A stretch of DNA of 64,000 nucleotides from a virus, in IMG/VR virus record IMGVR_UViG_3300008110_000009; one strand, given 5' to 3'. Under the pieces are notes generated by a model. The model was not told where the DNA came from, did no database searches, and worked only from the letters and a program-made list of their open reading frames with translations. The position numbers were made by a program, and so were the translations under genes. Below are positions 27,881 through 58,046 of the stretch, piece after piece; within the stretch, counting starts at the first letter, position 1; each line of letters opens with the position of its first letter.

Positions 27881-28297
27881 TTATTTAATTAATAATGCGG
27901 ATGTTGCTAATACACCAACAAAAGATCCTACTTTATATAAAAAGGTCTTTCTTCTTTGTCCTTTAAGTTCTTTTAATAAACTTTCTGATTTTTGTCTTTC
28001 TAGATTAAATTGCTCATCTTTTTTAACGATGATCAACTCTAGATTTGATATTTTTTGATCTTTAAGCGTGTCTTTTTCCTTAAAAAGTTTGATCTGATCA
28101 TCCTTTAGACCGATAACTTTATTTAAATCTAACACCTCGGCTTTTGCACCGTCTCCGCTAATGAGATCTTTAATAACCAATTTAGCAACAGGTACTTTTA
28201 ACGGCACTATTGTATCAATTTTTGTTATTGTAACGGTCTGTGAAAAACTTTTCGAGGTCAGAAAAATTATAGTTGTTAACAGAATCAATTTTTTCAT
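27881..28297 (-). CDS. Exported coiled-coil protein with C-terminal TM (spanin-like candidate)
   Basis: Signal peptide MKKLILL...SFS|Q, coiled coil, C-terminal hydrophobic helix; overlaps the upstream gene by 83 nt. Confidence 0.55.
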   Translation of the reverse strand: MKKLILLTTIIFLTSKSFSQTVTITKIDTIVPLKVPVAKLVIKDLISGDGAKAEVLDLNKVIGLKDDQIKLFKEKDTLKDQKISNLELIIVKKDEQFNLERQKSESLLKELKGQRRKTFLYKVGSFVGVLATSALLIK

Positions 28298-39120: not shown

Positions 39121-40353
39121 TTATGCTTCACTAGGCCCACCAGGTCCACCTGAACAACTATCATTACCTACTGATATAATACCACCATTTGAATCTACTC
39201 TTATAAATTTATATGTACCTCCATCATATAATAAATCACCATTAGGATTTGTTGTTGTTGGGGTATTTTGCGCACTTTGGTTTTCTGATTCAGTTATATA
39301 TGCCATTCTTGTTACATTACCTAATGACCAAGAACCCGCAACAGGTGTTGTTAAACCATAATCACTATAGATTGTTGTAGTACCTGGTGTTAAAATTGCG
39401 TCAGTTGTATAGAATGGTGAGTTAATTAGATAACCTTGTCCACCTGAACCAAAATTATTACAATAAGTTGTTGATATATTAGTGTCCATGACTTCTTCTG
39501 CTCTGTAGTATACATAAACTGTTGTTGGTGTTACTGTTGGTGTTAACGTCGGAACACCAAGACATTGTATACTTACCTCCCAATAGTCATTTACGTCATT
39601 TGGCGCAGCTAACATTGGTGCTGTTAATACATCTATGTAATATGTTTGGGTGTTATCATATGTTATTGTTAATGTTATTGGGCCAGTTTGAGTTGGGTAC
39701 CAATAATCATTTGAATCATAACCAGATGAATTACCAAACCATCCTGTACTTTCAATAATTGTTAAATCTGTTCTAATTGAAATATTGTTTGGTCTATCGT
39801 TTGCTGTACACGTAAAATTAATTAGCGATCCGTTAGCCACCCCTGTAAAATCTAGTTGACGATCAGGGTAATTATAAATCGTTGGCCCAGTATATTCACC
39901 TGTTACAGTAGAACTACATCCTGGCAAGCTAGTAGGGGTTATTGTTGTTGTTGGTGTAATTGTTGGTGTAACGGTAGTAGTAGTTGTTGTTGGTGTAATT
40001 GTTGGATCAACGGTAGTTGGTGTGGTAGTTGGTGTGGTAGTTGTTGTTGGTGTTATTGTTGGGGTAACAGTGGTAGAAGTTGTTGTTGGTGTTGGTGTTA
40101 CACCTGGTATTCCAGTTATTGAAATACATTGTGTTGTACCAGAACAATCTCCGCCGTCCACTTTAACAAATAAACTAACCGTTCCATCAGGTATTGATGA
40201 AATTGTTTTTGGAAAACTAGATACCGCTTGTGATGTTACTAGACTTGTACAGCCACTTCCACAAGACGCACCTGTACATCCTGATATTGAAACGGTTTGT
40301 CCTGTGATTCCGTTTCCTACTGTTCCTAAATTTACTGAAGCGTTAAATGCCAT
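39121..40353 (-). CDS. Putative virion surface protein: Cys-containing N-domain, PT linkers and beta domains
   Basis: Thr/Pro linkers separating compact domains; no signal peptide; TATTTATA motif upstream. Confidence 0.6.
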   Translation of the reverse strand: MAFNASVNLGTVGNGITGQTVSISGCTGASCGSGCTSLVTSQAVSSFPKTISSIPDGTVSLFVKVDGGDCSGTTQCISITGIPGVTPTPTTTSTTVTPTITPTTTTTPTTTPTTVDPTITPTTTTTTVTPTITPTTTITPTSLPGCSSTVTGEYTGPTIYNYPDRQLDFTGVANGSLINFTCTANDRPNNISIRTDLTIIESTGWFGNSSGYDSNDYWYPTQTGPITLTITYDNTQTYYIDVLTAPMLAAPNDVNDYWEVSIQCLGVPTLTPTVTPTTVYVYYRAEEVMDTNISTTYCNNFGSGGQGYLINSPFYTTDAILTPGTTTIYSDYGLTTPVAGSWSLGNVTRMAYITESENQSAQNTPTTTNPNGDLLYDGGTYKFIRVDSNGGIISVGNDSCSGGPGGPSEA

Positions 40354-40382
40354 ATGTTATAAATATTAATTCTTTTATTTTA

Positions 40383-41267
40383 TTATACTGGACACCCAAT
40401 AGGTATATTGTTATTAGCTCTTAATGTCACAGATACATGTAAAGGTGTTGGTGATGGTGTGTAATCCTCTTCTCCAAGCAGATTGTCAATCGGGCTACTT
40501 AAATGTAATTCTGATGTTCCAATAATATCACAAACTCTATATCTTATAATATTACCCGATCCACTAGCCCACATCCCTCTAATTGTATATGGTAATAAAC
40601 TTTCTAAAACATATATAGTTCCACTTCTTGATCCTCCAGCAGATGTGGTTTCATCTAATAATGTTGCACCATTTTTATCTAAGATAACTAATCGTCCACC
40701 AGAATCTGCACCTATAACCCAATCAATTCTTGCTGATGTAGTTGTTGTAGTTGTTGTTGGTGTTGTAGTTGTTGTTGGTGTTGTAGTTGTTGTTGGTGTT
40801 GGCGTTATTATAACATTATATTCAGACGATCCTCCAGTAAAAGTACAATCTGCAGGGGTTGTTGTTGGTGTTGGGCTTGGGGTAATGATTTGATCGCTAA
40901 TAGCAGAACCACCGCTAAATCTACAATCAATATAATTCGATGTACCTCCAGTAAATAAGCAACAATTTATACAATTATCATAAACCTCCTCATGATTTGT
41001 GAAAATATTTTCAATCACATAACCTCCGGTTACTGTATCTAAAATTTTAAACCAATATTGTGTACTATAGGACGCTCCACTAAAAATAATAGGGTTTGTG
41101 TTGTAATATGATCCATCAGAACTTGCTTGATAAGTTGTACCAGAATTTGGATAATATGTATACCCGGTTGTGACCACAGATTCATTACCTGCGGTGGGCC
41201 CAGTTTTATATAATAACTTAAATGGGTTTGGTGAAACAATACCTTTTAATTTTAGATTTAATCCCAT
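40383..41267 (-). CDS. Putative virion surface protein with three CxF(T/S)GG motifs and PT linkers
   Basis: Likely start MGLNLK at 41267, after a TATTTAT motif; CLFTGG, CRFSGG, CTFTGG. Confidence 0.6.
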   Translation of the reverse strand: MGLNLKLKGIVSPNPFKLLYKTGPTAGNESVVTTGYTYYPNSGTTYQASSDGSYYNTNPIIFSGASYSTQYWFKILDTVTGGYVIENIFTNHEEVYDNCINCCLFTGGTSNYIDCRFSGGSAISDQIITPSPTPTTTPADCTFTGGSSEYNVIITPTPTTTTTPTTTTTPTTTTTTTSARIDWVIGADSGGRLVILDKNGATLLDETTSAGGSRSGTIYVLESLLPYTIRGMWASGSGNIIRYRVCDIIGTSELHLSSPIDNLLGEEDYTPSPTPLHVSVTLRANNNIPIGCPV

Positions 41268-41300
41268 ACTACATAAATACAACTCTTATAAAATATAAAT

Positions 41301-41328
41301 AAAAAACCCCTCGTTTTGAAGGGGTTTT
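41301..41328 (-). terminator. Intrinsic terminator
   Basis: Minus strand AAAACCCCT-tcaaaacg-AGGGGTTTTTT. Confidence 0.8.
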
Positions 41329-41351
41329 AAAATATAATATTAAATTAGTTT

Positions 41352-41912
41352 TTAATTACCAATTAAACATGTTCCATTAGTTGTACAAGGTGTTCCGTCA
41401 TTTGACCATAACCACTCTGTTGTAATTTCTACACCACCTTGAACCCAAACAGGTGTACTATAAGCTCCACTAAATGAAACACATAAACCAGCTGTGATTG
41501 TACTATTACCGTTATCCATTGATTCAATGTTACTTAATAAAACTGTTTGGACGGTACCGTCATAATCTCTATATCTTACATATAAATCACCTGGTGGTGG
41601 ATTAGTTGTACTGTATGTTACAGTCCAACATTCTGCTGTTACACTTGATGTAGTTGTCGGCGTTGGTGTTGGTTGGGATGGGAAAGCTTCCCATTGCTGG
41701 GTATTTGTACAAATTCCGGTACTTGCGATTGTACCACCAGTTGTGAGATCACTAATACCAGTAATTGTATGTCCGGTTAATAATTGTTCCTTTGTTACCC
41801 CTGTTGCTAATTCTGTGGTAACATTACCGCTGGTTGTTCCTGAAATATTAAAAGGCCCAGCAACATATGTTGCGCCAGAATATTGATTTTGTAATGTGAA
41901 TGTAACTATCAT
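41352..41912 (-). CDS. Two-domain putative virion surface protein
   Basis: N-domain (AGPFNIS...ATGVTKEQLLTG...STGIC), PT linker, and a C-domain paralogous to the end of 41966-46945. Confidence 0.65.
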   Translation of the reverse strand: MIVTFTLQNQYSGATYVAGPFNISGTTSGNVTTELATGVTKEQLLTGHTITGISDLTTGGTIASTGICTNTQQWEAFPSQPTPTPTTTSSVTAECWTVTYSTTNPPPGDLYVRYRDYDGTVQTVLLSNIESMDNGNSTITAGLCVSFSGAYSTPVWVQGGVEITTEWLWSNDGTPCTTNGTCLIGN

Positions 41913-41965
41913 TGTTTTTTCTTTTTGTATAAATATTTGTTTATTTGAAATTGTTTATAATTTTT

Positions 41966-44900
41966 TTATACGCTACCTATTAGACATACACCATCAGATT
42001 CACAAATTCCACCTTGGGTCCAACTATCAAAACAAGTAACTTCAACACCACCTTGTACACAAACTGGTGTAGAATATGATGATCCAGGTTTAACACAAAT
42101 ACCTACAGTATATGTACCATTACCATTATCCATGGTCGCTAAATTCTGAATTAATACTGTTTGTACCGTATCTGTAACGTCTCTATATCTTACATATAAA
42201 TCATTTGGTATTGTTACGTAAGTCATTGTATAACAATATCCTGGAGCATCCCCATCAGTTAAAACTGTTAAACCACTTGTTGTTATACAACCATTTGTAT
42301 CAGTAACTTCAAGACAATATCCACCAGATGTTAAACCTGTTATTGATCTTGTTGGGTTACTAGACGCAACACTATAATATTCTGCCACTATATCTCCACC
42401 GCAAGTTGTATATGGTGAGCTAGTGTCCTTATATAATCTATATGTCTTAGGCCACACACCACCACTAGAACTAATATCAAGGCTTCCAGCTGATGGGGAA
42501 TAAAATCCAGGATTAACTGCATTATTAATTGTTGCATATTGTTGTGATGGTTCTGATATGTATACACCATATGTCGCCTCACACTGATTATAGTCTTTAA
42601 GGTACACCGTATAACTTCCAGAAGTTAAATTATTAAATGTTGCTGTTGGAACACCATTAACCAAATTGAATAAGTAATAGTCTGAGAAATCACCAGTCAA
42701 TGAAACTGTTAATTGTCCACTATTACCACTAGTTGGGTTTGTTATTGTTATTGAACCATTAGAACCACCGTAACAAGATATATTAGAATGCGTTATTGTT
42801 GCGCTTGGTGCCGCCTTACTTAAATTAGTGTTTTGATTAGACGATTCACATCCGTTTCCGTCTTTAACTCTAACAGTATATGTTGCTGAGTATAAGCCAG
42901 TAAAGCTATTACTTGATTGCCATGTTGATCCTCCATTAATAGAATATTGATATGAGCCAGCACCACCACTTGCAATTACTGTTATTGAACCATTTGTACT
43001 ATCATAACAAGTTGGATATACCACATTTGTATAGAATGATACTGCACTTGGAACCGTAATTGAAGTTGTGTATGTTTGAACACAATTTGAACCGTCCTTA
43101 ACATAAATAGTATATGAACCATCACCCAAACTAGCGTACGCCTGTGGTAAATTTCCATATGTGCCACCAGCGTTTAATTTAGATTGATAAGTACCACCGT
43201 TACCACCTGTTCCAGAATTAACTGAAATACTACCTGTTCCTCCAACACAAGTTGGATTAAAAATTGATATTGTTGCGTTTGGTGCAGATTTAGATAAAGT
43301 TTGTGTTGTTGCAGCAACACAATTATTAGCGTCTTTAGCATATAATACATATGTTCCAGTACCTAAACTACTAAATGTTGCACTTGCCTGATAGTTTGTA
43401 CCATCTTTTGAATATGTTTTTGTTCCAGTACCACCAGACGCGGATAATGTTATAGAACCATCAGCACCATCCCAACACGTTGGATTTGTTGCTGAATTAA
43501 CACTTACTGTTAATGCAGATGGCTCAGTAATTACATAGGTATATGATGCTTTACAATTTGTTGCATCTTTTATATATAACGTATAGTTTCCTGGTGATAA
43601 ATCACTGAAAATCTTTTGTACTGTGTAGTAAGTAATATCATTAAGAGATACTGTATATGGTCCATTATTACCACCACTTGCGCCAACAACATTTAATGAG
43701 CCGGTACCGCCATTACAATAAGCATTTGTTTGATTTACAACTGGTGTTGGAGCGGATTTTGTTACACTTACAGTCGCACTAGAAGATTGACATCCATTAC
43801 CATCTTTTGATTTAACGGTATAAACACCAGAACTTAAATTGGTAAACACACCACTACTTTGCCACGTTGACCCATTATCTTTAGAATATTCATAACCGCC
43901 TCCAGATCCGCCTGAAGCACTTAGTGTGAACCCTGCATTAGTGCTATTCCAACAAGTTGGATATTGTAATCCAGATGAACTAACAGTAACTTGAGTTGGT
44001 TGTGTTATTGTTACAGCATATGTATTTTCACAACCAGCGCTATCTTTTACATAAATAGTATATGAACCAGCCGATAAAGAAGAATAGGTTCTAGAGGTAG
44101 TTAATACTTGATAAGTTCCGCCCGAATTTAATTTTGTTGAGTATGGACCACCTTGGCCTCCTGATAAATCAGAAACAACTATTGATCCATCGCTACCGCC
44201 ATTACATGTTACATTTGTTTGTGATACTGTTGCGGTTACTTGTGTTCTATCTAAACCTATTGTGTTTGTTCTTACACAACCGGCACTATCTTTTACATAA
44301 ATTGTATATGTCCCATTACCTAAATTGCTGAAGGTTGTACCGGTTTGATATGTGGAACCATCTTTAGAATAGGTATATCCAGAGCCTGTACCTCCAGAAG
44401 CTGATGTTACGGTAATCGAACCATCTGTACTTCCTATACAAGTTGGATTTGTTCTAGATAATGTTGAACTAACTATAGTTGGCTCAGTCACTGTTACTAC
44501 ACTACTATTACCAACTTCACCATATGAATCTTTAGCATATAAAATATATGAACCAGCGGTTAACCCACTGAAAACATTTGACGCTTGATAATTTGTACCA
44601 TCTTTTGAATATGTATAACTTGCAGTACCTCCAGTAACCCCAGAAACAGTAATAACACCGTTTGAGCCACCATTACATGTTACATTAGTTGTGGTTGATA
44701 CACCAACCGTTAAAGTTACGTTAGTAATTGAAATTACAATCGATTTATCATATGTTAATCCTCCAGCATCTGTTGCTCTAACTCTAATTGTATAACTTGA
44801 TTGTGTTTCAAAATCAAATACCGCGGCACTTCTTAATGTTGTTCCTGAAATTGAAAAACTTGAATTTCCTGGATATGATGATGTGTCAACTAAGGCATAG

Positions 44901-46945
44901 GTAAAGGTGTCGCCAGCATCTGGATCAGATGAACTAAATGTCCCTATTGTTGTACCAGTTGGTACATTTTCTGAAATTGAAACTGAACTTAGAGAAATAT
45001 TTGTTGGTGCTTCGTTAACATTGGTTACTGAGATTGCAAATACTTGATCAAATGTTAAACCACCGGCATCTGTTGATCTAATCTTTATTGAATATGAAGA
45101 TTTTGTTTCTAAATCAAATATTGCCGCAGATTTTAAAGATGCTCCAGTAATAGTAAAACTAGAGTTATCTGGATAATTTGCTAAATCAACTAAAGTGTAT
45201 GTAAATGTGTCACCAGCATCTGGATCTGTTGTTGATAGTGTTCCAATTGTTGTACCGGTTGCAGAATTTTCTGCTATTGTATTTGATGATAATGAAATAG
45301 CTGTTGGTGTTTCATTAGCATTTGTTATCGATATTGTTAATGTTTTATCAAATGTTAATCCACCTGAATCGGTTGATCGGACTCTTATTGTATAAGAACT
45401 TTTTGTTTCAAAATTAAATACTGCTGCAGATTTTAGTGTTATACCACTAATACTAAAACTAGAGTTATCTGGATAATTTGCTAAATCAACTAAACTGTAT
45501 GTAAATGTACCGCCGTCTGGGTCAGTTGTTGAAAATGTTCCAATGGTTGTTCCTGTTGCCACATTTTCCTCAATTGATAATGAACTTAAACCAATATTTG
45601 TTGGTGCTTCATTAACATTACTAACATAGATATATAATGTACCATCATAAGTTAACCCACCTTGATCTGTTACTCTAATTTTAATTAAATATTCATTTTT
45701 TACCTCATAATTAAAGACAGCAGCTGATCTGAGTGTTGATCCACTTATGATAAAGCTGTTGTTGTCAGGATAAGTTATAGTATCTCTAAGTGCATAAGTA
45801 AATGTATTTCCAGAATCATTGTCTAATCCACTTAAAATACCAACAGTTGTTCCTGTTGCTGAATTTTCTGGGATAGTATCATTAGAAATACTAAAACCAT
45901 ATGGTGCTTCATTAACATTTGTTACATAAGCTGTTAACACACCTTCAAATGTTAAAGAATTAGAATCTGTTGCTCGAACTTTAATTGGATATGAATTTTG
46001 GATTTCATAATCAAAAATTTCAGCAGACTTTAAAACCCCTCCACTAGTTAATGTGAATTTATTATTATTTGGATAAGATAATGAATCTATAAATTCGTAT
46101 GTAAATGTATCACCACTATCAGGATCAAGCGCTGTTATTGTACCAACAGTTGTTCCTGTGGGTGAATTTTCCGGAATACTTCCGTTTAAATTTAAACCAT
46201 ATGGCGCTTCATTAATATTTGTTACATTAATTGTAAACGCTTTATCATAAAATAATCCACCGGCATCGGTTGATTTTATGATTATACTGTATGATGATTT
46301 ATTCTCGTAATCAAAAATTGCGGATGTTCTTAAATCAGAACCATCTATGTTAAAAGATGCCGCATCCCCAGTTGATTGTATGGAATAAGTATGTGTGTCG
46401 CCTAAATCAACATCATTAGTACTTAAAGTTCCAACAATTGTGTTTATTGGGCTGTTTTCATTTACTGTATTATTGCTTAAATTAATATCTACTGGTGCAG
46501 AATTTGTTGGGGTCGGGGTTGATGTAGATGTTGGCGTTGGTGTCGCTATAACCGCAATAGTGTCTATTAAAAATTCACAATTAGGGGTATAGGTTGATGT
46601 TGGTGTAAGAGTAATAGTTGGAGTGTTGGTTGGTGTTTCGGTTGGTGTTGCTGTAAGTGTTGGTGTTGAAGTTGGTGTGGCAGTTGGTGTTGGTGTTGGT
46701 AAAATTAAATCGTCACCAATTAAACAATATGGATCTGTGTTATATAAGATTATTTTATATGCATTATCAGGTACAGAAACTAACACACCGTTTATATCTG
46801 TTAAATCTGAATATGTTATTCCTGTTGCGGGTAATGACGTTGAAACCACCGTAGCAATATTCAACGGATCAACAACATCATAATAAATGTTGTATGGCCC
46901 TGGTGCCGTTCCTGAAGATATTGTTACTGTGAATTGTTTTGCCAT
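41966..46945 (-). CDS. Large adhesin-like protein: 6 cadherin repeats and ~9-10 SprB repeats
   Basis: Cadherin motifs ENS..GT.VG, DxDxGD, FDYE, VTNVNEAP x6; SprB-type TCNGGSDGSITV..SGG..YxYS.DG...F..L..G.Y...KD..C repeats. Confidence 0.85.
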   Translation of the reverse strand: MAKQFTVTISSGTAPGPYNIYYDVVDPLNIATVVSTSLPATGITYSDLTDINGVLVSVPDNAYKIILYNTDPYCLIGDDLILPTPTPTATPTSTPTLTATPTETPTNTPTITLTPTSTYTPNCEFLIDTIAVIATPTPTSTSTPTPTNSAPVDINLSNNTVNENSPINTIVGTLSTNDVDLGDTHTYSIQSTGDAASFNIDGSDLRTSAIFDYENKSSYSIIIKSTDAGGLFYDKAFTINVTNINEAPYGLNLNGSIPENSPTGTTVGTITALDPDSGDTFTYEFIDSLSYPNNNKFTLTSGGVLKSAEIFDYEIQNSYPIKVRATDSNSLTFEGVLTAYVTNVNEAPYGFSISNDTIPENSATGTTVGILSGLDNDSGNTFTYALRDTITYPDNNSFIISGSTLRSAAVFNYEVKNEYLIKIRVTDQGGLTYDGTLYIYVSNVNEAPTNIGLSSLSIEENVATGTTIGTFSTTDPDGGTFTYSLVDLANYPDNSSFSISGITLKSAAVFNFETKSSYTIRVRSTDSGGLTFDKTLTISITNANETPTAISLSSNTIAENSATGTTIGTLSTTDPDAGDTFTYTLVDLANYPDNSSFTITGASLKSAAIFDLETKSSYSIKIRSTDAGGLTFDQVFAISVTNVNEAPTNISLSSVSISENVPTGTTIGTFSSSDPDAGDTFTYALVDTSSYPGNSSFSISGTTLRSAAVFDFETQSSYTIRVRATDAGGLTYDKSIVISITNVTLTVGVSTTTNVTCNGGSNGVITVSGVTGGTASYTYSKDGTNYQASNVFSGLTAGSYILYAKDSYGEVGNSSVVTVTEPTIVSSTLSRTNPTCIGSTDGSITVTSASGGTGSGYTYSKDGSTYQTGTTFSNLGNGTYTIYVKDSAGCVRTNTIGLDRTQVTATVSQTNVTCNGGSDGSIVVSDLSGGQGGPYSTKLNSGGTYQVLTTSRTYSSLSAGSYTIYVKDSAGCENTYAVTITQPTQVTVSSSGLQYPTCWNSTNAGFTLSASGGSGGGYEYSKDNGSTWQSSGVFTNLSSGVYTVKSKDGNGCQSSSATVSVTKSAPTPVVNQTNAYCNGGTGSLNVVGASGGNNGPYTVSLNDITYYTVQKIFSDLSPGNYTLYIKDATNCKASYTYVITEPSALTVSVNSATNPTCWDGADGSITLSASGGTGTKTYSKDGTNYQASATFSSLGTGTYVLYAKDANNCVAATTQTLSKSAPNATISIFNPTCVGGTGSISVNSGTGGNGGTYQSKLNAGGTYGNLPQAYASLGDGSYTIYVKDGSNCVQTYTTSITVPSAVSFYTNVVYPTCYDSTNGSITVIASGGAGSYQYSINGGSTWQSSNSFTGLYSATYTVRVKDGNGCESSNQNTNLSKAAPSATITHSNISCYGGSNGSITITNPTSGNSGQLTVSLTGDFSDYYLFNLVNGVPTATFNNLTSGSYTVYLKDYNQCEATYGVYISEPSQQYATINNAVNPGFYSPSAGSLDISSSGGVWPKTYRLYKDTSSPYTTCGGDIVAEYYSVASSNPTRSITGLTSGGYCLEVTDTNGCITTSGLTVLTDGDAPGYCYTMTYVTIPNDLYVRYRDVTDTVQTVLIQNLATMDNGNGTYTVGICVKPGSSYSTPVCVQGGVEVTCFDSWTQGGICESDGVCLIGSV

Positions 46946-46964
46946 TATTTTATATAATTATTCA

Positions 46965-49331
46965 TTAACTTTGATTACACGGGTTTAAATTATATCCCAA
47001 TGTGTTTAGTGCTGTTATTATTTGATCCGCATAATATTGAGCGGTTGAACCCGCTGTGACATTTGAAATGTAGGTTATTTCACTCTTATCAGATAGACCG
47101 TTTGTTCCTGAGTATGCACCGGTTCCATCTTTAACCGCCACCAAGAATTGTCTAAATCCATCATATGAATTTGGACCCGTATTAACTCTAAACACAATAC
47201 CTCTATAATAACTGCTATTAGGAACATTGTCAAGCGTTGATCTTAAGCCGCTTATATCAGTATCATACGTTCCTGTTCTGACACTGGTATTAAATGAGCT
47301 ACCATCAGCAGCGTATGGAGAAGATTCGTCTTGGAATACTAAGTTTATAACTTTGGTTATACCAGCTGTTGTTCCTGTTGTGTTCAATACGTACATTGTT
47401 CTTTCAGTACCACCAGATTTACTTGAGAAGTTGCTTACCGTTACGTTTTGATCATATGTGTTATAATCATTATTGTAGAATTGAACGAGACAATCTCTTA
47501 AAATAGTATCTCTCATACTTTGTAATGGTGATAGTGTTGAGTTCATTGAGCCGCTATCGTCAAACCAAATATTAATTTCAGTGTTTTCATCAACAACTAA
47601 TGGGGTACCTAATGCAGCCTCAAACACACAATCAGGTGTGTATGTTGATGTTGGTGTTGCGGTTGGTGTTTCAGTTACAGTTGGTGTTGGTGTTTCAGTT
47701 GATGTAGATGTTGGTGTCTCAGTCAACGTTGGTGTTGGTGTCGATGTAGGTGTGGGTGTAGTAATTAAAGCCACTGTGTCAATTACAAACTCACAATTTG
47801 GTGTATAAGTAATTGTAGGTGTTTCTGTTACTGTAGGTGTTTCAGTAGATGTTACGGTTGGTGTTACTGTTGGTGTTGATGTTGGGGTAGGCGTACTAAT
47901 TACTGCCACTGTATCAATTATAAATTCACAGTTTGGTGTATATGTTTCAGTTGGTGTAATTGTAATTGTTGGGGTATCTGTTGCTGTTGGTGTCTCAGTT
48001 GCTGTTGGGGTTGGGGTTACTGTTGGTGTTGCAGTTGATGTTGGTGTTGGGGTATATATTGTACCACAATCTACGTACTCAATCTTTTTACATACAGGAT
48101 TTTCTGGATCAGTGGTGTCTAAAGTATAACCAGCTGGACAGCTATAGTTTGTGCAGAATCCCTCACCCGCCAAAGGTCCACCAGGTAAGTAATCACCTGT
48201 TGAGAACATTATATTTAATTCACTTGCATTGGTTACCCCAGTCAATGTTGCTAGTGTATCGTCATATACCTCAGCAGCAAACGATCCCACACTACTTCTA
48301 TTCCAGTTTTCAATTTCAACAATATTTGGACCTGCTTCTAGTGTTACTGGATATATGTGGTAGAATCTAAAATTATCTACTGGTGAGTTATCTGCTTGAT
48401 TTATTAATGTTACAGAATTTATTTTAACTGTAATATCATTATCACCAGCCACGCCGATATAATATGTTTTTGTTGTAGTTAAATTGAATGTTGCACAGAA
48501 ACTAACGTAATCAGGATAATTTGGATTTGGCCATGTCGTGTTACCATCAACCCAAACGTTAATTTGATTCATTCTACCAGCCCAGAATGATTCGTTAGGT
48601 GTTGTATCTGGGCTACCATATGCCGTTGTATAACCAGAATATGCTAAGTTACCACTTATCGAATTTCCAACAGTATTGTAGTCATTTTCATTGTATATCT
48701 TAACACCATACATTCCGTATGCTGAGTTACTACCACCATCACCAACTAACAAGTTTTCAATTGATGTTGGGGTTGATGTTAATACTCTATAACATGCACC
48801 CCCATCATTTGTGGCTGTAAATCCTTCAGGACAATCACATGTTGGTGTTATAGTAGGTGTTTCGGTTACTGTTGAAGTAGAGGTAGGTGTTGGTGTTGCA
48901 ACAATAGCATCAATATTAATAATAAACTCACAACTATCTGATGATGTTGTTGTTGGTGTTTCAGTAGATGTTACAGTTGGCGTTAAAGTTGGTGTTGGTG
49001 TTGCTATAACCGCGTTGATATCTATTACAAACTCGCAACTATCCGATGATGTTGTTGTTGGTGTTTCAGTTGGTGTAATTGTTATCGTCGGGGTTGAGGT
49101 TGGTGTTGGGGTTACTCCTGGAACTATTTCTAGGTTACAGACAAACCCTTCAAGTTCATTTTTAAAATTAAAATCGTATGTACCGTAGTAATAATCTGAG
49201 GTCCAAAAATAAGGTATAAGTACGTTGGTTCCGATGGTAACAGCTGTTCCTCCGCTATATGGATGAAAAACAACATCAGCATAATAACCGTTGTATAAAC
49301 CAGATGCACTATATAATCTTATTGTTGCCAT
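46965..49331 (-). CDS. Putative virion surface protein: CEFxID repeats, PA14-like domain flanked by CPxGY/F motifs, C-terminal vWA-like domain
   Basis: YYIGVAGDNDITVKIN...LEAGPNIVEI (PA14-like); CDCPEGF and SCPAGY; IWFDDSGSM (MIDAS DxSxS). Confidence 0.6.
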   Translation of the reverse strand: MATIRLYSASGLYNGYYADVVFHPYSGGTAVTIGTNVLIPYFWTSDYYYGTYDFNFKNELEGFVCNLEIVPGVTPTPTSTPTITITPTETPTTTSSDSCEFVIDINAVIATPTPTLTPTVTSTETPTTTSSDSCEFIINIDAIVATPTPTSTSTVTETPTITPTCDCPEGFTATNDGGACYRVLTSTPTSIENLLVGDGGSNSAYGMYGVKIYNENDYNTVGNSISGNLAYSGYTTAYGSPDTTPNESFWAGRMNQINVWVDGNTTWPNPNYPDYVSFCATFNLTTTKTYYIGVAGDNDITVKINSVTLINQADNSPVDNFRFYHIYPVTLEAGPNIVEIENWNRSSVGSFAAEVYDDTLATLTGVTNASELNIMFSTGDYLPGGPLAGEGFCTNYSCPAGYTLDTTDPENPVCKKIEYVDCGTIYTPTPTSTATPTVTPTPTATETPTATDTPTITITPTETYTPNCEFIIDTVAVISTPTPTSTPTVTPTVTSTETPTVTETPTITYTPNCEFVIDTVALITTPTPTSTPTPTLTETPTSTSTETPTPTVTETPTATPTSTYTPDCVFEAALGTPLVVDENTEINIWFDDSGSMNSTLSPLQSMRDTILRDCLVQFYNNDYNTYDQNVTVSNFSSKSGGTERTMYVLNTTGTTAGITKVINLVFQDESSPYAADGSSFNTSVRTGTYDTDISGLRSTLDNVPNSSYYRGIVFRVNTGPNSYDGFRQFLVAVKDGTGAYSGTNGLSDKSEITYISNVTAGSTAQYYADQIITALNTLGYNLNPCNQS

Positions 49332-49334
49332 TTA

Positions 49335-49925
49335 TTATATTTGAGTTAATGTTGCTATTACTGATGGCACTGACGGACCAATAGTTGGGGTCAGTGATGT
49401 TATTTGTATATTACTATCTGTTGTTGCCCAAGCAATTTCAACATAATCACCGCTATTTAAGTTGGGGTATATTATGTTCCAAGCAGCAACAACATATTCA
49501 CCGTTATTGGCGAAAGTTATTACTGTATTAGAGCTTGTAATAGATGTACCATTTTTCTTAAACCATATATAGAAATTTTCCGTTGTTCCACCTTGTACTC
49601 TATATAATTGAGCAGAGAATTGTAAATTATACGATCCTGGGTTACTAACAATCATTTGTGATCCATTAGCCCATGTACACCCATTTGTTGCATCAAGACT
49701 ATTAAATGTCATTAAATGCTCAGTATTTGTAGTTCCTGTTTGAATCACGGAACTACTATATGAACCAAAAAATCTTGTTGTGCCACTTGTTATAACACCA
49801 GAAAATAAATCTTCATGTGTTATAGCAGCAGAATCATATGGACCATTTCCTTGAGCCATATAAAATAACGATCCGCTTGTTGGGGTTGTTAATCGTTGTA
49901 ATTCTGAAATTCTAGTTATACTCAT
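49335..49925 (-). CDS. C1q/BclA-like jelly-roll domain protein with an RISEL-type N-terminal segment
   Basis: MSITRISEL...; IVSNPGSYNLQFSAQL, IWFKKNG, LNSGDYVEIAW. Confidence 0.7.
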   Translation of the reverse strand: MSITRISELQRLTTPTSGSLFYMAQGNGPYDSAAITHEDLFSGVITSGTTRFFGSYSSSVIQTGTTNTEHLMTFNSLDATNGCTWANGSQMIVSNPGSYNLQFSAQLYRVQGGTTENFYIWFKKNGTSITSSNTVITFANNGEYVVAAWNIIYPNLNSGDYVEIAWATTDSNIQITSLTPTIGPSVPSVIATLTQI

Positions 49926-49948
49926 TTTATTTAAATATTTTTTTTTAT

Positions 49949-52900
49949 TTATTCTTCTATTAATATGTCAGTATTATTTTCATCCACAATAAAACTTGCA
50001 CCACTTTCAAGAATTATCCCTTGAGAACTTTCAACAATTTCATAAGTCATATCACAAGATCCCTCTGTAAATGTAATTGTTGGTGTCGAAGTTATTGTTG
50101 GCGTTGTGGTAGAGGTTGGTGTAGGTGTTGATATAACTGAATTAATATCTATTACAAATTCACAACTATCTGATGATGTTGTTGTTGGTGTTTCAGTTAT
50201 AGTTGGTGTAGCTGTTTCTGTTGGTGTTGGTGTTGCAATAATTGCAATTGTATCAATTATAAAATCACAATTAGATGTAAAAGTTGATGTTGGCGTTATA
50301 GTAACACTTGGTGTCGGTGTTGCAATTGTTGCGACTGTATCAATAACAAATTCACAATTTGGTGTGTATGTCGATGTCGGCGTTATAGTGACGCTCGGTG
50401 TTGGGGTTGCAATTGTTGCAACTGTATCAATAACAAATTCACAATTTGGTGTTGATGTTGATGTCGGTGTTATAGTGATACTTGGTGTCGGAGTGGGAAT
50501 TACAGCAACTGTATCAATTACAAATTCACAATTTGGTGTTGATGTTGAAGTTGTTGTTGGTGTAGGTGTTAGCGTCACAACATTTGTATCAATTACAAAT
50601 TCACAATTTGGTGTTGTTGTTACTGTTGGTGTACTAGTTGGCGTCTCTGTTACAGTAGGCGTACCAGTGTTTGTTGATGTATTTGTAGGTGTACTAGTTG
50701 GTGTCTCAGTCAACGTTGGTGTTGGTGTCGATGTAGGTGTATTTGTAGCGGTTGGTGTGCTAGTTATGGTAGGTGTACTGGTAGATGTATTTGTTGGTGT
50801 AGGTGTAGATGTTGGACTTGGGGTTACTATTGGATATGTGCTACCACAAGGTACGGCCGGGGTTATAACACCACATTCAGTTGTATAATTTCTTACAGGA
50901 TCTTCAATTTCAGTTTTACAACATTGATTATCAATATAATATTGACTTAAGCTCATATTAAGTCTATTAAACTTAGTATATGAGTGTTGTATTAATACTT
51001 GTGTTCCATCATTACCATTAAACAATATTAGGTTTTGAGGTTGTGTTCCTGTTATATTAATGTTATAATAAAGATTATTTTCACAGTAATTTAAATTAAC
51101 TGAAATAACCTCTAATAATTCACCTTTTTCTGTAATTAAAAAATCACCAGTATCATAATAATCTGATGGATAATAACAACAAGGCTCCTCCGGTGTTTCT
51201 GGTTTTAATTGCAAAAACTCTGGAGATCTAGAATCAAAAAAGTAACCATCTCGTTTAGATACCCTATATGTTGCTTCATCAACCTCTTTATTTGTGTAAA
51301 CACGTAGTTTTGTTGTTGGTAAAACTTCAATAACAACCTGTTGACCGTTTGAGGTCATACCTATTATTTCACTTTTCTTTACAGATCCTAAACAATCAAT
51401 ATCGCTAATTGTATGCGTTGAATAATCATATGAAAAAGAATAATCATTGTTTTCACTAGCATATTCAAACATGCTTGATGAAAGTGTGGTGCATGATAAG
51501 TATGTTGCACCTAATATGACATTTCCATTAACTAAATCTTTAACATCTTTCTTAACAAGAGTTCCAGCAGCTAAATAACTAGTAATATTTGCTGGTGTTG
51601 TAGATGAATTAATTGTAGCACCACTAACAACAATAACTTTAGTATTGTGTTTTAAACCATAATTGTATGTGTTTCTATATTGTACTTTTGGTACTAATGT
51701 ATAGCCAGTGTTAACAACTAACGGTAAATCAGGCACTTCAGATGGGTATTCTACATATCTTAATGCTAGTCCTTCTATTTTTACTTTTTTATCACAGTTT
51801 GCTGCATCAGTAAAAATTAAATCAATAACCTCATCTTCTCTTACATTACTAAGTTTGAACTTACAATTTTCTCCAACAATTTGGAAGAAACTTGTATCTG
51901 TATAAGTTGGGTGGTATCCTGTACTGATGTTATTTCCTGGTGTACAATTTCTTTGAACATATACACCCCATCCACTATCGTTACCAGATTGAACAGTAAC
52001 ACCTGTTAAGCTAACAATAACATCTGTTGCAACTTTACAAGTTGGATAACCAGAATAAACATCACAAGACGCATCAAATGATAAATCTAAATGACATTTT
52101 GGCTCAGTATATTTGTAATCAACATCAAAATAAAAATCTAAATTATCTTTTACTAAACATTCTCCAGAAGAGTTTGTGTGTGCAATAAATTTAACTTTTT
52201 CAACACCATTATTATCTGTGAAAAATTCATAAGATATTAATTGTGTTTTTCCTGACAATATAGCATTTCCAGGAACATATGAAGGGGTATTGAATGCACT
52301 ATATTGTGTTTCTGTTTGATTAATTTGTTCAACAAGAGATGCTATGGCGTTTTTCCAAGCGGCTTTTATTGTTGTTAAATTTAAATTAATCCAATTTTTA
52401 TATTCACAAATAAGTGGTATTTTAGATGTTGAGGAAGTTAGTACACTACAACTTTCCACAGCAGTAAAACCAGTACCAAATAAGGTACTGCCGGTTAAAA
52501 CTACTTGTGTCGTTCCACTATAATCAGTACCGTCAATATCAATATGTAAAGTAAATGTTACACCACTAAATTCAATTAAACCTCTTAGATTATCTGGATC
52601 TCCAATTATTGTTTCAAGATCTTCTTCAATTACTGTTTCAAATTCTGGATATAAATTTTCTACAATCTCTAATGGTTTACATGGTTTTCTATATGAAAAC
52701 TTGGGTCTACCAAAAACATTGTTTTCAATTAAATTACCCCCCATCCATAATGTTGTTGATGGTATAATTTGTTCTAAAACATTTGACCAATATGGGCTCA
52801 TCTGATTAACAAAATCAGATGTTGATATTATATCATAAGTTGTATAACCAGATGCTACTAATTGATTTATATAATCCTGATAAACATCCTCTAAAGCAAT

Positions 52901-55003
52901 ATAATTCTTCTTATATCTTATTATATTTGAATTAGTTATTTGATTTGAGAAGGTATTTTCTAAATATTGTGCAAAAGTTACACCAGTTTGTGGTGGTAGA
53001 CTATTTGTGCCAAAAGTTACTTCAAGTTCTCTAGATTTTCTCCAAATATCATAGTTAACAGCATTTGCTGCAGATACGAATACGTTTATGTTTTTTCTAT
53101 TAAGAATTAAATTTGAAAGAGCTTCGTCTTCTAAGATTTGTCCTTGCTGATTATCAATTTCACTTTTTATTGTGAAACCATAATCTAAGCCAGGTAATGT
53201 TCTGTAATTATCAAAAAACTCTTCACCATAAGAATATGGTTTTGCTGTTGTTAATAGCGTTTTAGTTCTTCCGGTTAATACTGAATTTTCAGTATCAAGG
53301 ACATCGGAAGATCTATGATCTAAGCTAACATTTGCCCAGCCAGACCCCATTTGGAAGAAAACATTTTCTTGATTTGTTGTTGGAGCTTTAGGTAATAATG
53401 TTGTTTCGTCGATGGGGTAATCGGTTAGTTGATTATTTGTTGTTAACCCTGTTAAAGAAGAAACGGTATAAGTGTATGTATCACTATTAAATGTTACACT
53501 ATTACTAACATTAATATTATTTAATGTGTTATTTAGATCATCTAAAGTAGATGGAGGTAACGCACTGGTTACTTTATAAACATATTCGTTTATTTTCACC
53601 ATTGGATCTGGCGCACCGATAAACTTTAAGAAAAATTCAATACTACTTCTAGTGCCTTTTGATTTATATATAAATGCTAGATTAACTAATAACCTTCTAT
53701 AGAATTCAAGTTCGGCTTCTACTAAATTTTTACCAATAGCTTGTCCATTGTAAACAGTGGAAGAAGCTTTATATATTTGTTCTTCTAAACTTTTTTGATC
53801 AAATAAATTAATGGTATTAAGACCTAGTGTATTTGCTAAGTTTTTAAGAAAAACATCTGGGATATTATCAATTGCGTCATAAGAAACATTTCTCATGTTC
53901 GCGATATTGTCAATATAAGATTTTACTTTATCGAAGCTCTGACCATATAATTGAAATATCTTATCAATTTTTTGATCCTCTGTGTCAAATTCAAATAATT
54001 GCGGCGCAACAAGAAATCTTGTAACTAAATTGGATTTATAGTTATCAATTTCAGTTGCTAAGTCACTTAAACGTGTTAGATATTCCTCGAACTTAAGACC
54101 GGTAATTTGAATGTTGTACCCATCTTTTGATGTTGGCCAGTTAACTAATATGGAAATCAGTTCTGTTTTTGTTTCGTCTAAACTAGTTCTAGGAACCGTA
54201 AACCCAGCTTGATATATTGGGTATGTTTCTCGATTTAATAATGTTTGTTCTAAATCGTCTAAACCTAAATAAAATTCTTCAACAACACTGTCATTTGGTC
54301 TTAAAATAAAACTATCTGAATATGTTGCACCAGTAAATGGTTTACCATCAACAACAAGTGTTATTTGGTTAAACTGATCTGGCTGTACGTAACTTGTTAC
54401 AGCATAAGTTTTATCCTCTATTACAATACAATATTTTGTATATGAAGAAAATAAATTTCTTATTTTATTTTCAACTTCAATTAATTGACTTGCTGTTGGT
54501 TCTTTTAATACAATATCAAAAGGATTAAAAAATCTACCAACTTGAGTTTTAAATGTGGTTGTATTAGTTGTTGGATTATGTGTTATATTTTCAGCAGTGT
54601 AACTGTTAATAGACGCTAAAGCATCTTTGTCAATAAAAATACCGCCGGGAAAATTTTTAGCAATTCTAGCAATAGAGACTCTTATTCTTTCTCTTAATGA
54701 TCCAAAAAGAGACTTAGATGCATCTCTTTTATTTGTATTAAATCTTACTGGTCTTTTTTTACCATCAGATTGTACAACTGTTGTTGGAACATCTTCCTCA
54801 ACCTTAAGATTTTCTAATGTAATAAAATCTGAAAATGGCGCAGTTTGGAATTTTTTTGAGTCTTTCTCTGGGACAATCGTATCAAGAGCGAAGTTCGTAT
54901 TAGTCAATTGACTAGTACCGTCGGTAATTTGTCTACCAACGAGACTATCGTTAAACGTATCAAAACCACTAGCCGCCTGACTCGGAACTTTTCTTTTTGC
55001 CAT
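49949..55003 (-). CDS. Baseplate wedge-like protein with a long C-terminal PT/CEFVID repeat extension
   Basis: [17 protein letters not shown]...[25 protein letters not shown] resembles the P2 gpI-like wedge motif. Confidence 0.7.
50130..50620 (-). repeat. Six tandem C(E/D)F(V/I)ID motifs separated by Pro-Thr linkers
   Basis: DNA unit 'tatcaat(a/t)acaaattcacaatttggtgt' and variants; further copies near 49020, 48920, 47920, 47780 and 46570. Confidence 0.9.
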
Positions 55004-57212: not shown

Positions 57213-58046
57213 TTATAATTTAGCCGCAGTACCACTGCCAAAATCACAATCACTTGTAATTCCTCTAGTTATTTTATAGCTATGGTCCGATCTTTTGAAT
57301 CTTACTTGATAGTAAACATCATTAATTTCGTCCACAGTATTACTATAATTCATCTCATAAAACTTAACAGGATTTGCTGTTGTACCCACTCTTTCACCAT
57401 TTACTAAGCTAGAATTATTTGCTGTTAAATCTTTATTTAAAAATCTCGTAATTGTGCCGTCTTCAGCATTAAAAAATCTAGCAGTCATGTAAAAGGTTAG
57501 ACCGCTAAACACACTATCATCACCAAACCAAAACAAATACATATTTTCGGTGTTTCTGTAGTTGTTACCATTAAATACCGGTACAAAAATGTCTTCTCTT
57601 AAATTTAAGTCGAAAACTTTTTGTCCAAGAGGTATTGATAGGTTTTTAGCAAAAACAAGTTTTTGTGTTTCTCTTTCTCTTGTTGTATAAAATTCTAATC
57701 TAAAGAAACTATTAACGGTGTGTTTTAATAACTTAGCATTTTCTTTTGGGCTTATACCAATTAAATCGTAGTCAAAGCCATTATCATAATCTCTAGGATT
57801 TTGATTATTTAAAAAATAAAACTGATACCAAATGTCACATTGTTTAGTCGATACCCCAGATATTGTCACATCGTAAGGTTCATGAATATATCTAACAGTT
57901 TCATAGTTTTCAACCGGATTAATAATTGATCTAAGAACTTCTTCCTGATAATCTAGGAAATTTTCTTCCCAACCAGCATTTATTCTAAAATCTGTTTCCG
58001 GATTAAAAACCAAAGATTTACTATCTCTATTATACAATATATTCAT
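57213..58046 (-). CDS. Putative structural protein
   Basis: 277 aa in a tightly packed structural run; ends DCDFGSGTAAKL. Confidence 0.55.
   Translation of the reverse strand: MNILYNRDSKSLVFNPETDFRINAGWEENFLDYQEEVLRSIINPVENYETVRYIHEPYDVTISGVSTKQCDIWYQFYFLNNQNPRDYDNGFDYDLIGISPKENAKLLKHTVNSFFRLEFYTTRERETQKLVFAKNLSIPLGQKVFDLNLREDIFVPVFNGNNYRNTENMYLFWFGDDSVFSGLTFYMTARFFNAEDGTITRFLNKDLTANNSSLVNGERVGTTANPVKFYEMNYSNTVDEINDVYYQVRFKRSDHSYKITRGITSDCDFGSGTAAKL

What the first reader, a model, noticed from the sequence alone, without database searches (positions are those of the whole stretch)
39121..50900. Candidate branched virion adhesin scaffold built on a repeated Cys-led motif
Seen: the motif C(E/D)F(V/I/L)I(D/N)xxx(V/I/T/L) occurs 11 times, always isolated on Pro-Thr linkers. 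Six copies are at the C-terminus of the baseplate wedge protein, four in 46965-49331 and one in 41966-46945. There are two subtypes (TPN-CEF..DT and [12 protein letters not shown]). A sister motif CxF(T/S/G)xG occurs three times in 40383-41267 and once at the end of 57213-58046. Neighbouring proteins (46945, 41912, 40353) begin with a ~75-aa beta domain that has a Cys near its end, then a PT linker and different head domains; 46945 and 41912 share GP(Y/F)NI and ATG(I/V)T..L. Inference: an ~11-aa strand cannot fold alone, so it may be a docking strand (beta-complementation, possibly disulfide-locked) for those N-domains. That would give a cellulosome-like tree of interchangeable adhesins anchored on the baseplate.
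Basis: partly seen in the sequence, partly recalled or inferred. Interest (0 to 1): 0.85.

Follow-up and report, generated by a model that had tools for sequence, protein, structure and literature searches.

The report
Cys-led docking strands on phage fibre stalks
An uncultured jumbo phage carries many copies of an 11-residue cysteine-led beta-strand on the Pro-Thr stalks of three large tail proteins, and these strands most likely act as plug-in sites for the small N-terminal domains of swappable adhesin fibres, which would be a new way for a phage to build a branched host-recognition apparatus.

Summary
The motif occurs 11 times (6, 4 and 1 copies in three proteins), and every copy is an island inside a Pro-Thr linker. 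The copies are real and under selection: synonymous sites between them are nearly saturated (pS 0.63), while the peptide is conserved (pN 0.17).

The motif is the local form of a family-wide element, C-x-F followed by alternating V/I. I found 212 unique copies in a large lineage of uncultured jumbo phages. Copy number runs from 1 to 22 per protein. The sequence is specific to each lineage but similar across different proteins of one genome.

Three of the neighbouring N-terminal domains form one beta-sandwich family with 1893 cluster representatives. It is almost always N-terminal and usually has exactly one Cys.

- AlphaFold2 places the in-chain island of the cadherin protein onto its own N-domain as an added strand.
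- A two-chain prediction gave weak support: score 0.41, best control 0.02.
- Islands co-occur only with the 186-aa-protein type of N-domain: 27 of 27 island-bearing loci against 4 of 15 island-less loci.
- Island type co-diverges with that domain (partial Mantel r 0.34).

None of this is decisive. Self-stacking of the islands remains a live rival. The disulfide lock and the 'baseplate wedge' label are unverified. Other first readers of this scan noted the same stretch.

The parts
49949..55003 (-). 1684-aa scaffold protein. It has a conserved body (residues 1-1390), a PT stalk with 6 islands and a 38-aa acidic tail.
   Evidence: ORF; architecture; 278 homologues, all 'hypothetical'; wedge label rests only on a 0.84 lead to PF23786 clusters.
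50066..50833 (-). PT stalk of the scaffold protein (residues 1391-1646). Its six Cys-led islands lie at 50573-50605, 50498-50530, 50411-50443, 50324-50356, 50237-50269 and 50132-50164.
   Evidence: tandem 87-bp and 105-bp repeats with 74-85% matches.
49952..50065 (-). 38-aa acidic C-terminal tail of the scaffold. It is conserved in relatives whose island type differs.
   Evidence: Alignment A2; L005 keeps the tail with another island type.
49335..49925 (-). 196-aa small fibre-like protein with no PT linker and no island. It is absent from relative L012.
46965..49331 (-). 788-aa protein: N-domain of a separate family (49116-49331), 2 SSDS-type islands, an EGF-like/PA14-like middle domain, 2 TPN-type islands and a C-terminal domain with a D-x-S-x-S motif. 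Islands lie at 49005-49037, 48900-48932, 47898-47930 and 47763-47795.
   Evidence: cEGF E 5e-5 and PA14 E 0.0019, both below the Pfam cut-off; phrog_15511.
41966..46945 (-). 1659-aa adhesin: family-A N-domain (46694-46945), PT linker, one island (46547-46579), then cadherin and SprB repeats.
   Evidence: Pfam Cadherin E 6e-54 and SprB E 4.5e-36. In the AlphaFold2 model of residues 1-155 the island is a strand with block pLDDT 77, against 45-55 for the linkers.
41352..41912 (-). 186-aa protein: family-A N-domain (41673-41912) with one Cys, a PT linker and a small head. This is the N-domain subtype that tracks the islands.
   Evidence: hhalign; head homologous to the C-terminus of 41966-46945 and to the head fused onto the scaffold protein in L015; co-occurrence; two-chain prediction.
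40383..41282 (-). 299-aa protein (a likely ATG start at 41267): N-domain of a third family ending in two C-x-F-x-G-G units, a PT linker, one isolated C-x-F-x-G-G hairpin-like island, another PT linker and a head. The second-class motifs lie in 40806-40961.
   Evidence: The same layout is seen in the corresponding proteins of L111, L138, L143 and L137.
39121..40353 (-). 410-aa protein: Cys-rich family-A N-domain (40099-40353), a long PT linker and head domains.
   Evidence: hhalign probability 96-97.5% to the other two N-domains. The N-domain is 89-91% conserved while the head is swapped in L011.
57216..57248 (-). C-terminal C-D-F-G-S-G peptide of the 277-aa protein.
   Evidence: The peptide is conserved in close relatives. 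The L016 homologue instead continues into PT linkers and a head domain.
36989..39097 (-). Conserved 702-aa protein that bounds the variable fibre cassette. I used it as an anchor to fetch 80 related loci and as the control for divergence.

Best explanation
The islands are donor beta-strands. Each is an amphipathic strand of about 11 residues, with Cys, Phe and V/I on one face and mostly acidic or polar residues on the other, held out on a flexible Pro-Thr stalk. A strand inserts at the edge of the small beta-sandwich N-terminal domain (family A) of separate fibre proteins and completes or extends its sheet. The best candidate receptor is the subtype found in the 186-aa protein. The large scaffold protein (6 islands here, up to 22 in relatives) and the 788-aa protein (4 islands) would then be multivalent scaffolds on which N-domain/PT-linker/head adhesins are hung. 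The cadherin/SprB protein, with one N-domain and one island, can cap itself or pass the connection on. The lone conserved Cys of the N-domain and the lone Cys that leads each island could lock the joint by a disulfide once the virion is outside the cell. Shown: the motif, its selection, its family-wide distribution, the N-domain family, and the co-occurrence. Inferred: the binding itself, its partner specificity, the disulfide, and attachment of the scaffold to the baseplate.
For: (1) Selection. Across the 55 pairs of island copies pS is 0.63 and pN is 0.17. Between proteins pS is 0.69. Sameness of the copies is therefore not due to recent gene conversion.
(2) Strand character. The consensus of 212 unique islands is [N/D]-C-x-F-D-[V/I]-D-x-x-[V/I/A]-[V/I/L], then T-P-T-P. 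That is an alternating pattern, as in donor strands.
(3) Cis docking. The AlphaFold2 model of residues 1-155 of the cadherin protein used a 66-row alignment. The N-domain has pLDDT about 90. The island forms a DSSP strand at residues 125-132 with block pLDDT 77, against 45-55 for the flanking linkers. The only possible partners for that strand are N-domain strands. Structural alignments to C2-type sandwiches span residues 1 to about 132, so they include the island.
(4) Two-chain prediction. I paired the N-domain of the 186-aa protein with one scaffold island. The score was 0.41 and the best of 3 controls was 0.02. That mark was reached by 58 of 80 solved complexes and 2 of 110 mismatched pairs. 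A score of 0.60 or under was seen in only 7 of those 80 solved complexes and in both mismatches that passed, so this counts as weak support. The runs agree in at least 10% of contacts, and the partner's pLDDT is at least 47.
(5) Co-occurrence. Among 42 non-redundant related loci, islands are present with that N-domain subtype in 27 and without it in 0. Island-less loci have the subtype in 4 and lack it in 11. Fisher p is 3e-7, uncorrected for phylogeny. Two apparent exceptions turned out to have 15 and 22 islands once their scaffold genes were fetched. Three other N-domain families show no association.
(6) Co-divergence. Island-type distance correlates with divergence of that N-domain after controlling for the neighbouring 702-aa protein (partial r 0.34, permutation p about 0.002).
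(7) Fusion versus split. In L015 the scaffold homologue carries, directly on an island-free PT linker, a head homologous to that of the 186-aa protein, and the whole cassette is absent.
(8) Cysteine parity. 101 of 150 N-domain representatives have exactly one Cys and 128 of 150 have an odd number. Each island has one Cys.
Against: The complex score is in the weak range, where passes are more often wrong than right unless the prior is good, and one of three runs scored 0.11. AlphaFold2 also pairs the six scaffold islands with each other and with the linkers at pLDDT 52, so it may simply pair these strands with whatever is available. The N-domain family also occurs without islands: 4 of 15 island-less loci, and only 2 of the 150 best representatives carry islands in cis. 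Islands therefore cannot be its only anchor. A relative (P0154) has 7 islands in a stalk that also carries cadherin/SprB domains covalently. On the tree only 3 well-supported independent contrasts exist (6 on all branches). The N-domain trait went the same way in about 2 of these, did not differ in about 1, and never went the opposite way, so the test has no statistical power. The Mantel signal weakens to r 0.17-0.18 in subsets of 11-12 loci, and shared recombination history of the cassette could produce it. No coordinates were available, so the partner strand and the Cys-Cys distance are unknown.
Confidence: 0.4

Rival explanations
1. Self-association. Islands of one chain, or of neighbouring copies of the scaffold protein, stack in register into a small cross-beta or solenoid-like core, possibly with a ladder of disulfides. 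The PT linkers serve as the return loops. The array would stiffen, shorten or bundle the stalks rather than recruit other proteins.
For: AlphaFold2 turns all six islands, the intervening linkers and the tail of the scaffold C-terminus into one strand assembly. Copy number in scaffold homologues is typically 6-14. Islands are near-identical within a genome: identity 0.67 within a protein, 0.50 across proteins and 0.27 between genomes. That pattern suits in-register homotypic packing. Linkers between consecutive islands are mostly 17-21 residues or longer, with a minimum of 9, which is long enough to return along an 11-residue strand. In many relatives only the scaffold protein has islands.
Against: The model is low confidence: mean pLDDT 52, islands 55-68. 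Single-island proteins such as the cadherin adhesin and its orthologues cannot stack alone. This reading does not explain the strict association with one N-domain subtype or the co-divergence with it. Many arrays have odd copy numbers, which does not fit pairwise disulfides.
Confidence: 0.25
2. Repeat by-product. The islands are copies of the 'last strand plus PT linker' of an N-terminal domain, multiplied by slippage and recombination in the repetitive linker DNA. They are kept only as generic hydrophobic beads or spacers, with no specific partner.
For: The last strand of family-A N-domains has the same layout: a Cys, then about 10-15 residues of strand, then a PT linker. In L163 it reads as a true C-x-F strand. 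The arrays are tandem DNA repeats with varying copy number.
Against: pN/pS is 0.27 with saturated synonymous sites, which shows long-term constraint on each copy. Cys and the alternating pattern are kept through complete turnover of the other residues in many lineages. The orthologous single island of the cadherin protein follows the type of its genome's arrays.
Confidence: 0.12
3. The islands act on the host or are modification sites. They might be short hydrophobic, acidic strands that bind a host surface component or Ca2+. Alternatively the Cys or the D-T-V triplet might be a site of covalent modification.
For: Many lineages have D-V-D-V-D-type islands with one acidic face. D-T-V resembles the Bacteroidota O-glycosylation triplet (my own knowledge, not tested).
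Against: Virions assemble in the cytoplasm, away from the periplasmic glycosylation machinery. The SSDS subtype and many lineage types lack D-(S/T)-hydrophobic at that place. Nothing links the islands to a host ligand.
Confidence: 0.07

Closest known systems
Donor-strand complementation in chaperone-usher pili (for example Fim, Pap, Saf)
   Same: A short strand with alternating hydrophobic residues would complete or extend the sheet of a small Ig-like sandwich on another polypeptide. A protein with one acceptor domain and one donor strand could form chains.
   Different: No chaperone or usher is involved and this is not a pilin family. Foldseek gave only weak hits to pilin subunits (E 0.5-1). 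The donor strands are internal, repeated up to 22 times, sit on PT linkers and are led by a Cys. The acceptor groove was not inspected.
Cellulosome scaffoldin (cohesin-dockerin)
   Same: A multivalent scaffold has repeated docking elements separated by Pro/Thr-rich linkers, and interchangeable modules with a common docking domain are hung on it. Two island subtypes on one scaffold recall type-specific pairs.
   Different: No cohesin or dockerin domains were detected (Pfam). The docking element is an 11-residue strand, not a folded module. This is a virion, not a secreted enzyme complex.
Branched receptor-binding complexes of phages (Ackermannviridae tailspike complex, PMC11414711; Klebsiella jumbo phage phiKp24, PMC9700779; DT57C LtfA/LtfB, PMC4728585)
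   Same: Several receptor-binding proteins have conserved N-terminal anchors and swappable C-terminal heads, and are encoded in one cassette next to baseplate-region genes.
   Different: In those systems folded N-terminal domains of trimeric spikes bind folded domains of other spikes. Here the proposed site is a repeated linear peptide on a disordered stalk. There is no sequence similarity to those proteins (no PHROG or Pfam hits; no match in 50,697 phage records).
SpyTag/SpyCatcher (split CnaB2 adhesin domain)
   Same: A strand peptide completes a small beta-sandwich and is then locked covalently. The N-domain model aligns to SpyCatcher at Z 4.5, rmsd 3.4 over 67 residues, which is within the background range.
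   Different: That lock is a Lys-Asp isopeptide. Here a Cys-Cys disulfide is only conjectured, and no homology is shown.

Membership tests
Chaperone-usher donor-strand complementation | Acceptor Ig-like domain that lacks its last strand and exposes a hydrophobic groove | tested here: inconclusive
   The model is a beta-sandwich with the island added as an extra strand. No coordinates were available to inspect a groove. The N-domain keeps its own last strand.
Chaperone-usher donor-strand complementation | Donor strand with alternating hydrophobic residues | tested here: met
   Consensus of 212 unique islands: C, F, V/I, V/T/I/L and V/I/A at alternate positions.
Chaperone-usher donor-strand complementation | Dedicated periplasmic chaperone and outer-membrane usher | not tested
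   These are not expected for a cytoplasmically assembled virion. None appeared in the Pfam or PHROG scans of the proteins I examined.
Cellulosome cohesin-dockerin | Cohesin and dockerin domains | tested here: not met
   No such Pfam hit in any protein of the cassette at E up to 0.01-1.
Cellulosome cohesin-dockerin | Scaffold with repeated docking elements on Pro/Thr linkers | tested here: met
   Architecture. This is a resemblance of layout only.
Phage baseplate wedge (Pfam PF23786 and T4 gp6/gp7-like families) | Significant profile match of 49949-55003 or its neighbours | tested here: inconclusive
   No Pfam or PHROG hit even at E 1-5. The language-model neighbour clusters carry PF23786, at score 0.84, which is a lead only.
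Cadherin / SprB repeat adhesins | Pfam Cadherin (PF00028) and SprB (PF13573) repeats above the gathering score | tested here: met
   41966-46945: Cadherin 180.8 bits over 6 stretches; SprB 122.6 bits over 6 stretches.
Family-A N-terminal domain (unnamed, defined here) | Profile-profile homology among the N-termini of the proteins ending at 46945, 41912 and 40353 | tested here: met
   hhalign probability 99.1, 97.5 and 96.0%. The profile finds 1893 cluster representatives, nearly all matched at residues 1 to about 85.

The most novel reading that the evidence does not exclude
A phage 'fibrosome'. A baseplate-attached scaffold protein presents up to about 20 linear donor strands on a disordered Pro-Thr stalk. 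Each strand captures the Ig-like N-domain of an interchangeable adhesin by strand complementation and is then locked by a Cys-Cys disulfide outside the cell. Lineage-specific strand/domain pairs would keep co-infecting relatives from mixing parts. This would be a peptide-tag docking system invented by phages, usable as an orthogonal set of natural tag/catcher pairs.
Probability: 0.2. Interest if true: 0.9.

Novelty: new variant of a known kind. Interest (0 to 1): 0.7.

Why it matters
Branched, multi-adhesin tails are known to broaden phage host range, but in every solved case folded domains dock onto folded domains. A repeated linear strand on a flexible stalk that recruits modular fibres would be a different and very compact assembly rule. 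It would explain how this large, uncultured lineage of aquatic jumbo phages shuffles heads so freely: N-domains are 78-98% conserved while heads are swapped. It would also give a family of short natural peptide/domain pairs with lineage-specific sequences, of interest for protein engineering. Even if the docking model is wrong, the element is a strongly selected, family-wide feature that has no description in the databases searched.

Tried and rejected
- No isolated phage relative: tblastn of the 1684-aa and 702-aa proteins against 50,697 phage records found nothing.
- PDB sequence searches found nothing useful.
- No whole genome is held for this window.
- Foldseek of the N-domain model against the PDB gave no hit with E <= 0.001. 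VIA-align gave only generic sandwiches with Z <= 5.2. I therefore claim no specific fold family.
- Atlas search of the 186-aa protein was uninformative.
- Recent gene conversion as the cause of within-genome sameness is rejected on pS 0.63-0.69.
- A hetero-protein strand zipper as the general mechanism is rejected, because in many relatives only the scaffold protein has islands.
- I looked by eye for a difference between island-bearing and island-less N-domains of the cadherin-protein type and saw none.
- Co-divergence of island type with the other N-domain families was not significant.
- Phylogenetically independent contrasts gave only 3 supported pairs, too few for a test.
- A jackhmmer hit of the N-domain profile to the 138-aa protein at 27881-28297 looks spurious, since that protein is a signal-peptide/coiled-coil type.
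- Whether this lineage is the 'moraphage' group of PMC12619734 could not be established from the paper text.

Full report
WHAT IS THERE

All genes of the region lie on the minus strand. A regex for the reported motif finds exactly 11 copies:
- six near the C-terminus of the 1684-aa protein (49949-55003);
- four in the 788-aa protein (46965-49331);
- one in the 1659-aa protein (41966-46945).

A simple mask for Pro/Thr/Ser-rich sequence shows that every copy is an island of 10-11 residues with PT linker on both sides. The two subtypes and the sister motif C-x-F-(T/S/G)-x-G are as described. The sister motif occurs three times in the 299-aa protein and once as the last residues of the 277-aa protein.

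THE COPIES ARE UNDER SELECTION

The arrays are tandem DNA repeats with 74-85% matches, yet the codons of the islands differ freely. Over all 55 pairs of the 11 islands, the proportion of synonymous differences is 0.63 and of non-synonymous differences 0.17. Between proteins the values are 0.69 and 0.165. Sameness of the peptide is therefore maintained by purifying selection on old copies. It is not due to recent gene conversion.

THE GENOMIC SETTING

The window belongs to a very divergent tailed phage. It encodes a primase, a RuvC-like resolvase, an SbcC-like nuclease and a clamp-loader-like ATPase. Most structural proteins have no Pfam or PHROG match. There is no relative among 50,697 deposited phage genomes. 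IMG/VR, however, holds many relatives on contigs of up to 335 kb. This is a large lineage of uncultured jumbo phages.

The label 'baseplate wedge' for the 1684-aa protein could not be verified by profile searches. The only support is a sub-threshold language-model lead to clusters that carry PF23786. All 120 listed homologues, out of 278 found, are annotated as hypothetical.

THE CASSETTE IS MODULAR

Comparison with relatives shows that the genes between the 1684-aa protein and the conserved 702-aa protein form a variable cassette. N-terminal domains are conserved (78-98% identity in close relatives), while the parts behind the PT linker are exchanged.

In the distant relative L015 the cassette is absent. 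Its scaffold homologue instead carries, on an island-free PT linker, a head domain homologous to the head of the window's 186-aa protein. Heads recognisable here are cadherin and SprB repeats, an EGF-like/PA14-like module below the Pfam cut-off, and a domain with a D-x-S-x-S motif read directly from the sequence. These are adhesin-like, so the cassette encodes receptor-binding fibres.

THE MOTIF IS THE LOCAL FORM OF A FAMILY-WIDE ELEMENT

Scanning about 100 related loci for short non-PT islands inside PT linkers gave 352 Cys-led islands, 212 of them unique. Their consensus is [N/D]-C-x-F-D-[V/I]-D-x-x-[V/I/A]-[V/I/L], followed by T-P-T-P. This is an amphipathic strand with Cys, Phe and V/I on one face. 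The hydrophobic islands I saw were Cys-led; this was read off the listing and not counted.

The sequence is lineage-specific. Relative L005, whose scaffold body is 84% identical to the window's, has a D-V-D-V type in both its scaffold (10 copies) and its 788-aa homologue (5 copies). Within a genome the type is shared across proteins. Mean identity at the eight variable positions is 0.67 within a protein, 0.50 between proteins of one genome and 0.27 between genomes. The orthologous single island of the cadherin protein follows the local type.

Among 120 scaffold homologues, 73 have PT stalks and 37 carry islands, mostly 6-14 copies. Two further relatives have 15 and 22 copies.

A second, hairpin-like island class (C-x-F-x-G-G...) recurs at the same place in the homologues of the 299-aa protein.

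THE N-TERMINAL DOMAINS

Profile-profile comparison shows that the N-termini of the 1659-, 186- and 410-aa proteins are one family, which I call family A (probability 96-99%). Those of the 788- and 299-aa proteins are different.

A profile of family A finds 1893 cluster representatives among 1.84 billion proteins. Almost all matches lie at residues 1 to about 85 of proteins of 100-600 aa. Of the 150 best:
- 99 have a PT linker directly behind the domain;
- 101 have exactly one Cys in the domain;
- 128 have an odd number of Cys.

The Cys precedes the last strand, so the layout 'Cys, strand, PT linker' is the same as that of an island. In L163 the last strand is itself a C-x-F strand. The islands may therefore have arisen by duplication of 'last strand plus linker'.

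STRUCTURE PREDICTIONS

AlphaFold2 on residues 1-155 of the cadherin protein, with a 66-row alignment, gives a confident beta-sandwich (pLDDT about 90). It places the island as a DSSP strand (residues 125-132, block pLDDT 77) between linkers at pLDDT 45-55. Only N-domain strands are available as its partners. Alignments to C2-type sandwiches span residues 1 to about 132. No specific fold family emerges.

AlphaFold2 on the scaffold C-terminus (residues 1440-1684) stacks islands, linkers and tail into one strand assembly. Confidence there is low: mean pLDDT 52, islands 55-68.

The single complex job paired the N-domain of the 186-aa protein (60-row alignment) with one scaffold island (32-row alignment). 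The score was 0.41 and the best of 3 controls was 0.02. That mark was reached by 58 of 80 solved complexes and 2 of 110 mismatched pairs. A score of 0.60 or under was seen in only 7 of those 80 solved complexes and in both mismatches that passed, so the tool's verdict is weak support. The runs agree in at least 10% of contacts, the partner's pLDDT is at least 47, and one run scored 0.11.

COMPARATIVE TESTS

I classified 42 non-redundant loci that had the full 10 kb upstream of the 702-aa gene. Where the scaffold gene lay outside that range I fetched it.
- Islands with the 186-aa-type N-domain: 27 loci.
- Islands without it: 0 loci.
- No islands but the domain present: 4 loci.
- Neither: 11 loci.

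Fisher p is 3e-7, uncorrected for phylogeny. Two loci first scored as exceptions proved to have 15 and 22 islands in their scaffold gene, which lay outside the 10-kb stretch first scanned. The cadherin-type subtype of family A and the N-domain families of the 299- and 788-aa proteins show no association, while the 410-aa-type subtype shows a weaker one.

Island-type distance correlates with divergence of that N-domain after controlling for divergence of the 702-aa protein (partial r 0.34, permutation p about 0.002). The signal is weak in smaller subsets, and shared recombination history could cause it.

On a tree of the 702-aa protein each trait changes at least 6 times. Only 3 well-supported independent contrasts exist. 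The N-domain trait went the same way in about 2 of these, did not differ in about 1, and never went the opposite way. That is too few for a test.

READING

The element is real, selected and widespread. That would make the scaffold protein and the 788-aa protein multivalent scaffolds for interchangeable adhesins.

I put this at about 0.4. The structural evidence is weak-range, and the predictor also stacks islands on themselves. The domain family also exists without islands, and one relative has islands in a stalk that carries its head covalently. Self-stacking of the islands into a stiffening core is the main rival, at about 0.25. The disulfide lock fits the cysteine parity but is untested.

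COMPARISON WITH KNOWN SYSTEMS

The proposed mechanism works like donor-strand complementation of chaperone-usher pili, and the layout is like a cellulosome scaffoldin. Membership in either family is not supported: no cohesin or dockerin domains were found, pilin similarity is not significant, and no chaperone or usher was detected.

Branched receptor-binding complexes are known in phages (PMC11414711, PMC9700779, PMC4728585). They use folded domain-domain contacts and share no sequence similarity with these proteins. I found no description of Cys-led strands on PT linkers in virion proteins.

Other first readers of this scan noted the same stretch. Their notes agree with the observation and were tested here as stated.

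Noticed in passing
L208 (record of L176) and L207 (record of L116), scaffold homologues: A sister lineage has no Cys-led islands and no 186-aa-type N-domain. Its very long PT stalks instead carry dozens of a Cys-free unit of the form P-T-L-T-I-T-Q-S-I-T. This may be an alternative repeat element.
   Followed up: partly
window 49952-50065: The 38-aa acidic C-terminal tail of the scaffold protein starts with another Cys-led strand. It is conserved in relatives whose islands are of a different type (L005, L011), which suggests a function of its own.
   Followed up: partly
P0154 (relative of 49949-55003, 86% identical over residues 1-960): This 2568-aa form has the scaffold body, 7 islands and cadherin plus SprB repeats fused in one chain. 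In the window those repeats are on a separate protein.
   Followed up: partly
P0016: A 1495-aa protein matches the family-A N-domain profile in 13 stretches. Everywhere else the domain is single and N-terminal.
   Followed up: no
window 57213-58046 versus L016:5494-7908: The window's 277-aa protein ends right after its C-D-F-G-S-G peptide. The homologue in L016 (804 aa) continues into about 400 residues of PT/Q-rich linker and a Cys-rich head.
   Followed up: partly
window 46968-47651: The C-terminal domain of the 788-aa protein contains a D-x-S-x-S motif, as in vWA MIDAS sites, but it has no Pfam hit. PHROG 15511 (unknown function) matches it.
   Followed up: partly
window 8953-11421: An 822-aa fibre-like protein elsewhere in the window also has PT linkers (41 and 22 residues) but no Cys-led islands. 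It has PHROG hits to virion structural proteins.
   Followed up: partly
scaffold homologues P0151-P0270: Linker lengths between consecutive islands cluster at about 18, 28, 38-39, 46-49 and 55 residues, in steps of about 10. This suggests a quantised linker unit.
   Followed up: no
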